From positions 1-38,651 of the IMG/VR virus record IMGVR_UViG_3300017700_000457: DNA of 38,651 nucleotides. The stretch is one strand, 5' to 3'. Below the pieces are notes generated by a model. It was not told the DNA's origin and did not search any database. It worked only from the letters and a program-made list of their open reading frames with translations. Made by a program: the position numbers and the translations under genes. How positions within the stretch are numbered: position 1 is the first letter of the stretch; every line of letters starts with the position of its first letter. The DNA is from a virus. Taxonomy: Duplodnaviria; Caudoviricetes. Below are positions 6,845 to 11,122 of the stretch, piece after piece.

Positions 6845-7037
6845 GGCAGGCAAGGGCGACAAGCGCGTACCGATGGCAATCACGCGCGACCAGTTCGTCA
6901 GCAACTGGGACAAGGCTTTTGCCAACGTCCCGCTTATTTGCCCGGCATGCAATACCGAGCCGTGCGACTGCGAGCGGACGGAGGACGGGCCGGGGCAGGA
7001 TGAGGCGGCGGAAGGTGCTACTTCGTCAGGTTGTTAA
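6834..7037 (+). CDS. Hypothetical protein (GKGD.R.P...F..NWD..F, CxxC), last gene of the early unit
   Basis: AAGGAG SD; converges on and overlaps the last late gene. Confidence 0.65.
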   Translation: MAHEAGKGDKRVPMAITRDQFVSNWDKAFANVPLICPACNTEPCDCERTEDGPGQDEAAEGATSSGC

Positions 7038-7539
7038 TCGTGTCGTCCTTTGTCTTGTTCGCCCGGGTGGTGCCAAATTCAAAACTAAATATTTGCTCCA
7101 CCCATCCCAGCGCGCGACCACAGATAAGCGTGATTGTCGCTTTTGCGAAGTCGTCCATCTGGCTTGCCCATACGACGATTAGAAGACAGAACATCACCAG
7201 CATCCCCGCGCCTGCCGCAAGGGCATTTGCACGGTAATTAACCTGACCAGTTTTTGCCAACTCTACATCGCGTTTGCGTGCGTCTTGAACATCGAGCAGG
7301 TACATGTTTTCCAGCGCCTGCTGCCGGTCTTCCATGGCAAGTTGGAAATCGAGCGCCTTGGCTGGGTCAATCTGGATCGCAGCAACGGCTTTTTCTTCTG
7401 TCGGCGCACCGGTCACGACCTTTGCAATGTCGAGCACGTGGCCGGCGACTTCGCCCGCCTTATCGTTACCAGTGATGAGCTTGATGATGCCGGGGGCGAA
7501 TTGAGCCAGTTGCAGTGCCAATGGGATAAGGGGAATCAT
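7018..7539 (-). CDS. Membrane protein of the 3-TM (GTA-type) holin-like family
   Basis: N-terminal amphipathic helix, DVQDARKRD motif, two C-terminal TMs, F.FG(T/S)(T/S) ending; follows the endolysin. Confidence 0.7.
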   Translation of the reverse strand: MIPLIPLALQLAQFAPGIIKLITGNDKAGEVAGHVLDIAKVVTGAPTEEKAVAAIQIDPAKALDFQLAMEDRQQALENMYLLDVQDARKRDVELAKTGQVNYRANALAAGAGMLVMFCLLIVVWASQMDDFAKATITLICGRALGWVEQIFSFEFGTTRANKTKDDTINNLTK

Positions 7540-7541
7540 GA

Positions 7542-7670
7542 TCAACCTTTCGTGGTTTGATTGAGAATGTCGCGCAGGGTGCTCATGTTCACCTCAAACA
7601 CCCAGCAAACAGCGCGGACGCCGATGCAGAAGCCGATGATCATGGCAATGATGTGCGTGACGATGTTCAT
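7542..7670 (-). CDS. Small membrane peptide (42 aa, MNIVTHIIAMIIGFCIG...)
   Basis: Read by hand; ATGA-coupled to the endolysin stop; one hydrophobic stretch. Confidence 0.55.
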   Translation of the reverse strand: MNIVTHIIAMIIGFCIGVRAVCWVFEVNMSTLRDILNQTTKG

Positions 7671-8086
7671 GGAAATTCACCCGTGCGCATGATCGCGGCC
7701 AGGCGCTGCGCTCGAGCACCGACTTGACGCGACCAAAGCGAGTCGAGCATGCCCTTGGCGGCGTCGTCATAGCGACCGCCAAGCATGGCAGCAAGAGTGT
7801 TCTTGAACTTGAGCAGGCCAGCTATCCCCATGTTGAACGCCATGTTGGCAAGCACGGTCTGACGCGCTTCGTTCATGGAGCGCCACCAAGGAAGCTCGAT
7901 ATCAAGCTGCCGCTCGACTAGCTCAATGTCGTTGGTCAGCATGAGGTCGATTTCGTCATCGGAGAAATCGCGGTCTGTCAGGTTGCGCCCGACGCCGGCC
8001 GTAATCTTGTTCATCGTATCAACATAGATGCGCTTCTTGCGCCCCTCGTCAATCGTGAGCTGCGCTTTCAGCTTGTCGATGTTCAT
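7667..8086 (-). CDS. Endolysin, T4-lysozyme-like (GH24)
   Basis: DEG.....Y.DT....T.G.G.NL catalytic E-D-T motif; NMAFNMG; MLDSLW.RQVG.RA.RL. Confidence 0.93.
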   Translation of the reverse strand: MNIDKLKAQLTIDEGRKKRIYVDTMNKITAGVGRNLTDRDFSDDEIDLMLTNDIELVERQLDIELPWWRSMNEARQTVLANMAFNMGIAGLLKFKNTLAAMLGGRYDDAAKGMLDSLWSRQVGARAQRLAAIMRTGEFP

Positions 8087-8415
8087 GGCGTTCTCCGCTC
8101 GATGATGTGCAGAATTGTTGACATCTTGTCGGCCAAGTGCTTTTCGATGCTGTCCATTCTGTCCTGGAACTGGCTCACGACAGCAGCAAATTTCTGCTCA
8201 TATTGCACTTCAAGCCGCGCTGTTTCGCGCTGGTGCCGCTCCGACTGGTCGCGCAGGTCAGAGCGCCATGCCTCTTTCGCTTCCTCCAGCGCTTTTAGCG
8301 TGGCCTTTTGCTCAAGGCCAATCTTGATTTGCGTGTGCGCGTCCTTAAGGAAATAGGCCAGCACCAGAACCAACATGCCGATAATCCAAGGGATTGGGTT
8401 TGACGGGTCAAGCAT
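8083..8415 (-). CDS. Single-TM plus coiled-coil protein, holin/antiholin candidate
   Basis: N-terminal TM; directly upstream of the endolysin with ATGA overlap. Confidence 0.65.
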   Translation of the reverse strand: MLDPSNPIPWIIGMLVLVLAYFLKDAHTQIKIGLEQKATLKALEEAKEAWRSDLRDQSERHQRETARLEVQYEQKFAAVVSQFQDRMDSIEKHLADKMSTILHIIERRTP

Positions 8416-8776
8416 GATGGAGCCTCTTTACGATTGGACCAGATAGAAAAATGCACACAATCAACTCTGCGTGCTCAAGGAATTTTACGCCAGCATGGTA
8501 CGGCGAAGCCGATGGGTAGCCATCCAGAAGCCACCCAAGCCCATGAAACACGAATAGCAGCGCCGACATACGGACGACTAGCGGTGACGCCTGCGCGCCG
8601 ATCCTGTTTGCCAGCAAGCCGACAAGCAATTCAACCAGCATGCAAACAAGGTAAAACAGCGCGTCAGGAACCGGGAAGAAAATACCCGCGCCGACGACTA
8701 GCGCCAGCGCGAGCATGCTTTTATCTGCTGCGTTCAGCGCCAAGGCCAAGCACAGCAGGACCGCGTAGGAAGTCAT
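8408..8776 (-). CDS. Hydrophobic about 4-TM membrane protein
   Basis: 122 aa, almost entirely hydrophobic segments, with intramembrane E/H residues. Confidence 0.8.
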   Translation of the reverse strand: MTSYAVLLCLALALNAADKSMLALALVVGAGIFFPVPDALFYLVCMLVELLVGLLANRIGAQASPLVVRMSALLFVFHGLGWLLDGYPSASPYHAGVKFLEHAELIVCIFLSGPIVKRLHHA

Positions 8777-8850
8777 TTCTTCGGCGGCTTCTTCGGCGTG
8801 GTCTTCGGCTTCGGTGGTTCGCCGTTGCCGGCCATTTGAATCTGATGCAT
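8773..8850 (-). CDS. 25-aa Pro/Lys-rich peptide MHQIQMAGNGEPPKPKTTPKKPPKK
   Basis: AAAGGAG SD 7 nt before the ATG; its TGA overlaps the ATG of the 4-TM gene (ATGA). Confidence 0.75.
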   Translation of the reverse strand: MHQIQMAGNGEPPKPKTTPKKPPKK

Positions 8851-8896
8851 GGTAGTTCTCCTTTGGTTAAATCAATTTACTCGTTTAAACAGGGGT

Positions 8897-11122
8897 TTAG
8901 TCTTGGAACCAGACGCCCGAGCGGTTGACCAGCGAAATAGACTTGCCAGCCCCCACCACAACGTTAGCAGCCGTAGCCGTGTAGATCGTGACAGCGTTAT
9001 GCTGCACAGTGCAGCCGCTGCCGGTGGCAATGATCGTGATTCGCTGGCCGTCCTTGCCGTTGACAAAATTGGTGAACGTGTCGCCGGTAGTGGCGTTCAG
9101 GATGGCTGCTGCGGCGACGTTCGGCGTGGTCGTAGATGGTATTGTCACCACGCCAACATAGTAATCACCATTCACCTGCGCATACAGAGAACTTGCGCTG
9201 TTGAAGGCATTGGCGCCCATACCGTAGAACGTGTTTTCTCGCGCTGTGATTGTAAGAGGATTGTCAAGCGCGGGAGCGTACATAGGAAACGAGGTGCTTG
9301 CGAACGTCGTTGTGTTCACAAATTCATTGTTGCATAGATCGATATTTTTCGAGCGCAGCCCCTGGGTGGCAAAACTCATAACCGTCATGCGCTGCGGAGC
9401 GCCAGCCAGAAGATTCCCGGTATTGTGAAAATAATTCATCTTCACAGAACCACCAAGAATACCGCCGAAGAACACAATCGGCGTGTCAAAAATCGTGCCT
9501 TCGATGCGCCAGTCTCGGACCTTGTTGCCGTTCATAGTCAAGTTTTCAATAGGGTATCGCCCGACACCGCCGTCATCGTAGCCGATTAGCGCCTGTGCAT
9601 TTGATGCTCCAACATCATTGCGGGAGATATCCATTCCGCGCACACCGCCCACGTACCAGCGACGATTCATTACACCAACGCCGGAATCTTCCTGAACATT
9701 GTCTGTGAAGCTGGCATTGATCGGGCTGTCAGAGGCGACTGCGGTATGATCAGCGGCGCTGCGGCCAATAAAATAGAAATCGGACACTCCTGTAATATTG
9801 CGGAACGTGTTGCGGTACACGTGCATTTCTCGCGCTGGGACGGTCAGCGCTGCGCTCAAAGCAAAGCCGACAACGCCTGTTGCGCCGCCAATATCATCGA
9901 ACGTGTTGTCGTGGATGCGAATGTTTCGGATTTTTGCACTAGCCAAGATAGGCTCGATGTCGATAGCGCCAGGCATCGCCGGAGCAGCGGTGCGCGTCGT
10001 GCGGTAGATCGAATTATGGTGAATCGAAATGTTCGTACCTTCCAGAACCGATATTGCCTGCCGGTTGTCCTTGTTCACGCCGTCAAAGATGCAGCCAGAA
10101 ATTTCGACATCGTTGACGAAGGTTTCCAGCACAGCAGACAGCGTATTGTTGTCGTTGATGCCGAGCGTGATTGCATCGCCCGGCCAGCCGACAAAGCGAC
10201 CGTTGATGATTTTGCAGCGATTAACAGCGCCGATGTAGATCAGCGCCGTGTTTTCCAATGCCGCATTCCAGGCCGAGCCGGGCCGGGTGATGTACGGGTT
10301 GATAAAATTGATGTCGCGTGGCGCGCTTTCCAGACTGGTAACGGCCGCCAGAAGTCGCGTGGTGAACCCGATTACGCACGAAGGATCGAGGCGAACCTCG
10401 CCCAGCCCTGTCCATCGGTATGAAACGCCGCTTTCCAGCTTGATACCGTCTGTGATGCGCCCGCCGATGACGCCCCCACTACCCTTGAGTAGCAGCACGC
10501 AATTTATGATTACTTCTCCACCGCCCAGCAAGAACATTGCATTGGTCGCCGCTTGCAGCGCCGCTGTGGCGTCTAGCGTAGGCGTGCCGGTGGCCGAGTC
10601 GGCAACCTGTTCTGCGGTCATGAAATCAGTAACGGACACGCGCTCGCGCAACTTTGACTGCACAGTTCGCGCATTCGCCCCTGCACCGCCCTGGATAAAG
10701 CCAATGAACGACGAGCCAGCGGACGTTGCCAAGTCTTGCAGCCATTTCCCGATGGTTCCGGCACTATACACAGCCGCATACAGAAAACCAAGCATACCCG
10801 CGCCAGTGCTTCCCGCTAAGTCAGCAGGAGATACAGCCGCGATAATGCCGTCGCGCGTCCAGATGGTTGCGCCCGTTCCGCTTTTGAGCACCAGCGTATA
10901 AGCAATGCCAGGGGTCAGGAACACGGATGCCTCGCCCCTTGTATCGAGCGTGACAGGGTTTGTGTTCGATGCGGACAATGGTGCATCGCTATACGTCGCC
11001 GCCAGCGTGACAGTCCCTGACAGGTACGTGTACAGACTGTAGCCGGCAGCAGGCTTGAGCGCGCCCGTAATCAGGTCTGGATAGTCCGCGATGAATTTGC
11101 CGCCGATGATTTGCTGTGTCAT
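8897..11122 (-). CDS. Tailspike/depolymerase: head-binding N-terminus plus right-handed beta-helix
   Basis: TNPVTLD.RG particle-binding motif; RTVQSKLRERVSV.DF and D.TAALQAA signatures; pectin-lyase-like repeats. Confidence 0.88.
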   Translation of the reverse strand: MTQQIIGGKFIADYPDLITGALKPAAGYSLYTYLSGTVTLAATYSDAPLSASNTNPVTLDTRGEASVFLTPGIAYTLVLKSGTGATIWTRDGIIAAVSPADLAGSTGAGMLGFLYAAVYSAGTIGKWLQDLATSAGSSFIGFIQGGAGANARTVQSKLRERVSVTDFMTAEQVADSATGTPTLDATAALQAATNAMFLLGGGEVIINCVLLLKGSGGVIGGRITDGIKLESGVSYRWTGLGEVRLDPSCVIGFTTRLLAAVTSLESAPRDINFINPYITRPGSAWNAALENTALIYIGAVNRCKIINGRFVGWPGDAITLGINDNNTLSAVLETFVNDVEISGCIFDGVNKDNRQAISVLEGTNISIHHNSIYRTTRTAAPAMPGAIDIEPILASAKIRNIRIHDNTFDDIGGATGVVGFALSAALTVPAREMHVYRNTFRNITGVSDFYFIGRSAADHTAVASDSPINASFTDNVQEDSGVGVMNRRWYVGGVRGMDISRNDVGASNAQALIGYDDGGVGRYPIENLTMNGNKVRDWRIEGTIFDTPIVFFGGILGGSVKMNYFHNTGNLLAGAPQRMTVMSFATQGLRSKNIDLCNNEFVNTTTFASTSFPMYAPALDNPLTITARENTFYGMGANAFNSASSLYAQVNGDYYVGVVTIPSTTTPNVAAAAILNATTGDTFTNFVNGKDGQRITIIATGSGCTVQHNAVTIYTATAANVVVGAGKSISLVNRSGVWFQD

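What the first reader, a model, noticed from the sequence alone, without database searches (positions are those of the whole stretch)
8408..8850. Hidden 25-aa peptide coupled to a 4-TM protein at the head of the lysis cassette
Seen: below the ORF-track cutoff is MHQIQMAGNGEPPKPKTTPKKPPKK, with a very strong SD (AAAGGAG). Its stop overlaps the ATG of a 122-aa, roughly 4-TM protein carrying polar residues within or next to the hydrophobic segments (VE, FH, LEHAE). That gene overlaps the holin candidate, which is coupled to the endolysin. Inference: a short peptide plus small membrane partner in front of lysis genes is not part of the canonical holin/endolysin/spanin set. It could be a ligand-receptor or substrate-processing pair that tunes lysis timing (lysis inhibition or phage-phage signalling). 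The repeated PP/KP motifs could instead act as a ribosome-pausing, EF-P-sensitive leader that sets lysis-gene translation.
Basis: partly seen in the sequence, partly recalled or inferred. Interest (0 to 1): 0.7.

Follow-up and report, generated by a model that had tools for sequence, protein, structure and literature searches.

The report
Peptide–receptor pair heading phage lysis genes
Many unrelated bacterial viruses keep an overlooked tiny peptide gene locked to a small membrane-protein gene just in front of their cell-bursting genes, and the pair likely works as a signal and its sensor that would tune when the infected cell bursts.

Summary
Confirmed (minus strand): a 25-codon gene with a strong ribosome site overlaps a 122-aa membrane-protein gene, which overlaps a 110-aa TM/coiled-coil gene and the lysozyme. 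All 23 non-redundant loci found by protein homology (window included) carry a coupled upstream ORF with the core [AVT]-G-N-G-[NDEK]-P-P, which varies only at third codon positions. The core is sometimes doubled or fused to a longer ORF. The membrane protein matches no named family; it is predicted to have five helices, with conserved polar residues facing outwards. A likely distant family (phrog_15451; PEi21, Klebsiella, Vibrio, Aeromonas phages) has the same layout in 12 of 13 records read, with proline-free Gly cores. This weakens the EF-P reading. Best model (0.45, untested): the peptide, released at lysis, is the ligand of an outward-facing sensor that adjusts holin timing. The 110-aa 'holin' is unverified. 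Ten paper searches and the scan's own notes showed no description of the pair. The conserved module is solid; binding, expression and function are not shown.

The parts
8858..8864 (-). Shine-Dalgarno AAAGGAG of the peptide gene
   Evidence: duplex energy -8.7 kcal/mol
8773..8850 (-). 25-aa peptide gene; no hydrophobic signal sequence
8812..8832 (-). conserved core A-G-N-G-E-P-P (family consensus [AVT]GNGNPPP); the pattern occurs once in the genome
8408..8776 (-). 122-aa membrane protein, predicted 5 TM, N-out/C-in; conserved N15, P35, Y42, C45, E49, H78, Y93, E101; coupled to the peptide by an ATGA overlap
8083..8415 (-). 110-aa single-TM plus coiled-coil protein; third gene of the module in this clade; holin role unverified
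7667..8086 (-). phage lysozyme (endolysin)
   Evidence: PF00959; phrog_7
7542..7670 (-). 42-aa hydrophobic ORF of the lysis cassette, no family
7018..7545 (-). 173-175-aa membrane protein, phrog_1544 (unknown function), last gene of the cassette
8897..11122 (-). tailspike-like gene directly upstream (context only)

Best explanation
A conserved short peptide gene is translationally coupled to a gene for a predicted five-helix membrane protein at the head of the lysis genes, and the peptide's glycine core is likely the ligand of that protein, which would then adjust when the holin fires. Shown: the coupled gene pair, protein-level selection on the core, duplicated cores, the lack of a signal sequence, and the position before lysis genes. 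Inferred steps: (1) the peptide is made late and abundantly and stays in the cytoplasm; (2) it gets out when a cell lyses or its membrane is breached; (3) the core, perhaps trimmed after the small residue A/V/T, binds an outward-facing pocket (Y42, E49, H78, Y93, E101) of the membrane protein in other infected cells; (4) the membrane protein acts on the third gene product or the holin, most likely delaying lysis when many neighbours are bursting, as in lysis inhibition.
For: The core is present in 23 of 23 homology-found loci and in 8 more found by the motif; codon pattern 0/0/35 of 92. Only the core is kept: peptides run 16-46 aa, net charge -5 to +9, and the core lies 9-40 codons from the stop. 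Two full cores occur in L043, L053 and L061, three in PEi21, and two each in Aeromonas phages 4_L372X and AeroV_348, as expected of a dose-dependent ligand. K+R per segment is 1.6-3.7 in loops 1, 3 and the C-tail against 0.4-0.7 in loops 2 and 4, and the distant family shows the same pattern. This places Y42, E49, H78 and Y93 in the outer half, on the other side from where the signal-less peptide is made (highest 11-residue hydropathy 0.55). Core and pocket change together: GNGNPP goes with H78/E101, GGxG[KR] with Asn and no Glu; 4_4512 bridges the two with AAGNGSQR. The pair survives exchange of gene 3 (TM/coiled-coil, a 150-aa membrane protein, or phrog_13707) and of five endolysin families. 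A named endolysin lies within 1.5 kb downstream in 20 of 29 loci with downstream DNA.
Against: No experiment ties the pair to lysis timing; the link is gene position. A 2.8-kDa peptide would need trimming to pass the outer membrane, and no protease or exporter gene was seen next to the pair. Topology rests on the positive-inside rule, and the pocket on helix positions rather than measured coordinates. The link to phrog_15451 is weak by sequence: hhalign probability 56-80%, 1.3% for the single sequence, and 1 of 84 members hits the PHROG at E 0.0054. Vibrio phage CP-T1 has the membrane gene and gene 3 but no upstream peptide. In L014 a tail gene follows instead of an endolysin, and in VP16C, 1.009.O and phiPLPE no annotated endolysin is adjacent. 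The membrane gene depends on ribosomes from the peptide ORF (median SD -1.5 vs -5.6 kcal/mol), which also fits a cis-acting leader. JD001 and PEAT2 have degenerate cores.
Confidence: 0.45

Rival explanations
1. The pair works inside one cell: the peptide binds the membrane protein, or gene 3, from the cytoplasm or after the first membrane lesions, as a stoichiometric inhibitor or timer (antiholin-like or toxin-antitoxin-like), with no cell-to-cell signal.
For: There is no signal sequence or exporter. Tight coupling fixes the ratio of the products. The core is also found at the C-terminus of longer ORFs in L018, L034 and L120. Multi-gene antiholin-like sets are known (CSP1, PMC13577005; N4 gp62, PMC12642591).
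Against: The conserved polar residues map to the predicted outer half, while the cytoplasmic loops keep mainly N15 and S64.
Confidence: 0.22
2. The peptide is a cis-acting leader: ribosomes pause at GN-PP(P), and EF-P supply or proline status sets how many reach the coupled membrane and lysis genes.
For: PP is invariant in all 34 cores of this clade (the search pattern demanded PP, but all 23 homology-found loci met it). The leader has a strong SD and the downstream gene has almost none. Consecutive prolines stall ribosomes without EF-P (search-listing abstracts PMC6544042 and PMC11611912).
Against: The core-to-stop distance is 9-40 codons, cores are duplicated, no terminator-like site lies in or before the leader, and the distant family has no PP in its core.
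Confidence: 0.15
3. The membrane protein is an AgrB-like enzyme that cuts, modifies or exports the peptide; the product signals to a receptor encoded elsewhere.
For: H78 (99%), C45 (83%), E49 (88%) and E101 (95%) are conserved across 84 sequences. A small residue always precedes the first Gly. Multi-core precursors are typical of processed peptides (own knowledge).
Against: Cys and His are replaced by Ala and Asn in the distant family. No Pfam or NCBIfam protease model matches. The core has no Cys or Ser for ring closure.
Confidence: 0.13
4. The pair has nothing to do with lysis (for example superinfection exclusion or a virion-carried factor) and only shares the late operon.
For: It always lies after tail genes in this clade; L014 has a tail gene downstream; CP-T1 lacks the peptide.
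Against: In PEi21, AeroV_348 and 4_4512 the module has moved to a unit divergent from the endolysin and still carries its third gene, which hits holin PHROGs weakly in PEi21.
Confidence: 0.05

Closest known systems
T4 lysis inhibition (RI/RIII antiholins, T holin) and other lysis-delay systems (ICP1, N4 gp62, CSP1_020-022, BSPM4 ORF52)
   Same: Accessory genes that tune holin timing, in T4 through a periplasmic sensor of an outside cue. Seen: N4 results part 1 (PMC12642591), CSP1 results part 2 (PMC13577005), BSPM4 abstract (PMC11657625), ICP1 search listing (PMC7182436); T4 detail recalled.
   Different: In the text read, none uses a coupled micro-peptide with a repeatable core or a five-helix membrane protein (N4 gp62 has 2 TMs, CSP1_021 has 1 TM). 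Their sequences were not compared directly; tblastn of the 122-aa protein against 50,697 phage records gave no match.
Arbitrium (AimP/AimR) and phage Rap-Phr (recalled)
   Same: Phage-encoded short peptide with a small active core, sometimes duplicated, encoded next to its receptor.
   Different: Here there is no signal sequence, the partner is a membrane protein rather than a cytoplasmic TPR protein, the cultured relatives infect Gram-negative hosts, and the genes sit with lysis genes rather than lysogeny genes.
AgrB/AgrD (recalled)
   Same: Small multi-pass membrane protein with His/Cys next to a short peptide gene.
   Different: No AgrB model hit, no amphipathic leader, no ring-forming Cys or Ser, no sensor kinase, and His/Cys are not kept in the distant family.
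phrog_15451 (unknown function: PEi21 ORF-50, Jedunavirus, Vibrio and Aeromonas phage proteins)
   Same: Similar predicted fold (Foldseek probability 1.00, TMq 0.64, E 0.04), aligned Y/E-D/S/H-N/GW/Y pattern, same charge topology, same peptide-membrane protein-small membrane protein layout.
   Different: About 16% identity, GGxG[KR] cores without prolines, a different third gene; itself uncharacterised.
Proline-rich EF-P-sensitive leaders such as mgtL (search-listing abstract PMC6460261; detail recalled)
   Same: Short upstream ORF with consecutive prolines before a membrane-protein gene.
   Different: Direct start-stop overlap, variable position and duplication of the motif, and a conserved G-N-G before the prolines.

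Membership tests
Arbitrium / RRNPP | Pro-peptide with a hydrophobic N-terminal secretion signal | tested here: not met
   highest 11-residue hydropathy 0.55 among 28 peptides
Arbitrium / RRNPP | Cytoplasmic TPR receptor | tested here: not met
   the partner is a 122-aa hydrophobic helical bundle; no Pfam hit
Arbitrium / RRNPP | Peptide acts between cells | not testable with these tools
   needs added peptide
AgrB/AgrD | AgrB sequence family | tested here: not met
   no Pfam or NCBIfam hit at E 0.1
AgrB/AgrD | Catalytic His/Cys pair | tested here: inconclusive
   H78 99% and C45 83% in 84 sequences, but Asn/Ala in the distant family; geometry not measured
AgrB/AgrD | Cys/Ser for a (thio)lactone ring in the peptide core | tested here: not met
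   core positions -1 to +6 contain neither in 34 cores
AgrB/AgrD | AgrB fold | tested here: inconclusive
   only generic helical bundles among the listed rows
T4 RI-type antiholin | Single anchor plus soluble periplasmic domain | tested here: not met
   five hydrophobic helices with outer loops of about 11 residues
Antiholin / lysis regulator (functional class) | Binds holin and changes lysis time | not testable with these tools
   needs lysis assays
EF-P-sensitive leader | Consecutive prolines in an upstream ORF | tested here: met
   PP in all 23 homology-found loci; absent from the cores of the distant family
EF-P-sensitive leader | Stall site at a fixed distance from an attenuator or ribosome site | tested here: not met
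   9-40 codons from the stop; no terminator-like site in the leader
phrog_15451 | Direct HMM match | tested here: not met
   none for the window protein; 1 of 84 relatives at E 0.0054
phrog_15451 | Remote homology (profile, fold, layout) | tested here: inconclusive
   hhalign 56% and 80%, P 1e-4 and 1.5e-5; Foldseek probability 1.00 at E 0.04; same layout in 12 of 13 records; likely but not proven
Holin (110-aa gene) | Match to a holin family | tested here: inconclusive
   only weak coiled-coil hits; L007, L008 and L048 encode a recognised holin further downstream

The most novel reading that the evidence does not exclude
Tailed phages of Gram-negative bacteria widely use a peptide released at lysis, read by a five-helix membrane receptor, to sense how many neighbouring cells are bursting and to reset holin timing; the peptide core and receptor pocket differ between phage groups like dialects.
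Probability: 0.35. Interest if true: 0.92.

Novelty: categorically new. Interest (0 to 1): 0.74.

Why it matters
How phages other than T4 sense outside conditions to delay lysis is open: the N4 preprint says the T4 parts are not conserved in N4 (abstract, PMC12642591). Peptide signalling between phages is established only for Gram-positive hosts (recalled). This module gives a concrete, two-gene, chemically synthesisable candidate that sits beside lysis genes in podo-, sipho- and myovirus-like genomes. Likely distant members are in cultured phages (PEi21, Klebsiella Jedunaviruses, Aeromonas and Vibrio phages), where the peptide gene is often unannotated, so it can be tested at once. Even under the intracellular rival it would be an undescribed accessory lysis component.

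Tried and rejected
Complex prediction: the window's membrane protein with alignment A1 against the 34-aa peptide of relative L002 (not the cognate pair; the window's peptide is under 30 aa) gave no verdict. Sequencing runs: no RNA holder listed. Fold searches of the PDB gave only generic helical bundles (best Z 10.9, rmsd 3.3 over 112 residues, a designed cage), and the profile search of PDB sequences found nothing. ESM Atlas for the window protein gave scores of 0.78 only. Search for fused longer forms found none, which is weak evidence; two long low-complexity hits and one fragment (P0115, P0129, P0118) were dropped from alignment work as spurious or partial. The genome-contig scan with the single protein gave one unconvincing 29-residue hit, so presence in prophages is untested. 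Loci for the distant clades were not found, so their upstream DNA is unread. tblastn of cultured phages with P0001, P0128, the 110-aa gene and the L043 protein gave no match. The phiCbK fold hit K4JPZ4 was not located in about 123 kb of 216 kb read. Aeromonas phage vB_AsaM-56 was a wrong guess. The DNA motif alone is not diagnostic: 102 of 120 motif loci had no membrane-protein homologue, and the AGGRGKTR scan gave 6 loci, of which two carry the PEi21-type triple repeat, one lay inside a long unrelated ORF and three were not read. A DNA-binding role for the basic tail was rejected as general because 10 of 28 peptides are net acidic. Chance micro-ORF rejected. Paper searches showed no description of the pair; subscription papers and bioRxiv supplements were not visible.

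Full report
Setting. The window is a complete 38,651-base virus genome with direct terminal repeats. It has P22-type coat, portal and terminase genes; the nearest cultured coat protein is only 40% identical. On the minus strand a tailspike-like gene (8897-11122) is followed by four overlapping ORFs: a 25-aa peptide (8773-8850), a 122-aa membrane protein (8408-8776), a 110-aa TM/coiled-coil protein (8083-8415) and a lysozyme (7667-8086). A 42-aa and a 173-175-aa membrane ORF close the cassette.

The peptide gene is real. The membrane protein has 41 close relatives and 88 hits among 50%-identity representatives, two of them low-complexity false hits. Searches gave 33 loci. I dropped ten duplicates or near-duplicates, all of which also carry the core, and one locus cut at its 5' end. 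That left 22 relatives plus the window. All 23 have an upstream ORF ending within 8 nt of the membrane gene's start and containing [AVT]-G-[NG]-G-[NDEK]-P-P. At four core codons the non-majority bases at positions 1, 2 and 3 number 0, 0 and 35 of 92. The motif appeared in 7 of 46,000 composition-matched controls. A reverse scan for the motif gave 120 viral loci: 10 re-finds, 8 new loci with a more distant membrane-protein homologue directly behind, and 102 unrelated.

Only the core is kept. Among the 28 peptides with their own ATG, length is 16-46 aa, net charge -5 to +9, and none has a hydrophobic stretch. The core lies 9-40 codons from the stop. L043, L053 and L061 carry two full cores. In L034 and L120, and probably L018, the core ends a longer ORF. 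The peptide has a good ribosome site (median -5.6 kcal/mol, window -8.7) and the membrane gene has a poor one (median -1.5, window -1.1), so the second gene likely depends on the first for translation.

The membrane protein. It has no Pfam, PHROG, NCBIfam or PDB sequence match. AlphaFold gives a confident bundle of six helices (pLDDT 95.9). Across 84 sequences five segments are hydrophobic; loops 1 and 3 and the C-tail are basic, and loops 2 and 4 are neutral to acidic. The positive-inside rule (own knowledge) then gives five passes, N-out/C-in. Conserved polar residues are N15 93%, P35 94%, Y42 79%, C45 83%, E49 88%, H78 99%, Y93 100% and E101 95%. Y42, C45, E49, H78 and Y93 fall in the predicted outer half. 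That they line one pocket is inferred from helix positions.

A wider family. Foldseek against viral models returned no hit at E 0.001 or better, but eight uncharacterised proteins at probability above 0.9, TMq 0.59-0.73. The top hit, N0DPG0 of Edwardsiella phage PEi21, I matched by organism and length to ORF-50. ORF-50 is preceded by a 41-aa ORF with three copies of DAGGRGKTR and followed by an 89-aa protein with weak holin hits. tblastn found relatives in 92 phage records. I read 13 records chosen for diversity. Twelve have a short upstream ORF with a Gly core: AGGRG, AGGNG, GGGNG, AGGQG, or AAGNG in 4_4512. The cores are degenerate in JD001 and PEAT2, and the ORF overlaps oddly far in phiPLPE. 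CP-T1 has none. All ten proteins scanned are phrog_15451, unknown function. Profile comparison with the window's family gives 80% (P 1.5e-5, 100 columns) and 56%, aligning Y42, E49, S71, H78, G81-W82 and Y93 with Y, D, S, N, G-W and Y; the single-sequence comparison gave 1.3%. The charge topology is the same. The Atlas lists 30 unnamed clusters at 0.9 or above for the PEi21 protein; the three shown are about 95% viral. Homology is likely, not proven.

Context. Gene 3 is the TM/coiled-coil family in 22 of 23 loci by HMM, and in L034 by eye. It is an unrelated 150-aa membrane protein in all 6 motif-found loci with downstream DNA. Of 29 loci with downstream DNA, I sent one hand-picked candidate from each of 28 to PHROGs. 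Twenty are named endolysins from five families, 7 are phrog_3108 (unknown, in the same slot), L014 has a tail gene, and L059 offered no candidate. The pair is therefore the constant unit while its neighbours are exchanged. The 110-aa gene is not shown to be the holin: L007, L008 and L048 have a recognised holin further on.

Mechanism. A movable, repeatable core, a signal-less peptide, and polar residues on the far side of the membrane fit best with a ligand that reaches its receptor only after release by lysis or membrane damage, with the receptor acting on holin timing (0.45). An intracellular inhibitor or timer (0.22), a proline-stall leader (0.15), an AgrB-like processing enzyme (0.13) and a lysis-unrelated role (0.05) remain. 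Everything beyond gene structure, conservation and context is inference.

Comparison. It would work like T4-type lysis inhibition in output and like arbitrium in input, but it fails the defining tests of arbitrium, AgrB/AgrD and RI-type antiholins. Papers seen: N4 (PMC12642591; abstract and results part 1 of 2), CSP1 (PMC13577005; abstract and results part 2 of 2) and BSPM4 ORF52 (PMC11657625; abstract and outline). The others were seen as search listings only. Arbitrium, Agr, mgtL and T4 details are recalled. Ten searches found no description of this pair; subscription journals and bioRxiv supplements were not visible. The scan's earlier notes held no related look-alike.

Verdict. This is a real, widespread, unannotated peptide plus five-helix membrane-protein module at the head of phage lysis genes, with function untested. 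Interest 0.74.

Noticed in passing
L001:5398-5946, L003:4702-5196, L021:1894-2406, L031:3691-4200, L043:3381-3878, L048:159-656(-), L061:226-723(-): phrog_3108 (unknown function, about 165 aa) fills the endolysin slot in 7 cassettes, so it may be an unannotated endolysin family.
   Followed up: partly
window 7018-7545; L003:5201-5719; L005:5254-5736: phrog_1544 (unknown) ends these cassettes, and I saw no Rz/Rz1-like pair in them; it may replace spanins or be the true holin.
   Followed up: no
L043:2500-2952 and five related loci: A 150-aa multi-pass membrane protein (weak phrog_20672) replaces the TM/coiled-coil gene behind the pair; in L048 a PHROG-named holin follows it.
   Followed up: partly
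L157:1381-1497, L158, L159, L165, L166, L177: The peptide gene is missing from the public annotation of several cultured phages (JD001, PEAT2, VP16C, 1.009.O, 4_4512).
   Followed up: yes
L162:686-1620 (Vibrio phage CP-T1): The membrane gene and gene 3 are present but the peptide is absent; a 169-aa membrane gene is coupled upstream instead. This is a natural 'receptor only' variant.
   Followed up: partly
L018:2211-2648, L034:1122-1385, L120 upstream ORF: The core sits at the C-terminus of longer ORFs next to tail genes; the two scanned have no PHROG hit.
   Followed up: partly
L064, motif on the minus strand: A 120-aa ORF ends in two GNG-PPP cores with no membrane-protein homologue behind it.
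   Followed up: no
proteins P0049 and P0061: Their N-terminal extensions look like the peptide core read in another frame, i.e. mis-called starts over the peptide gene (by eye).
   Followed up: no
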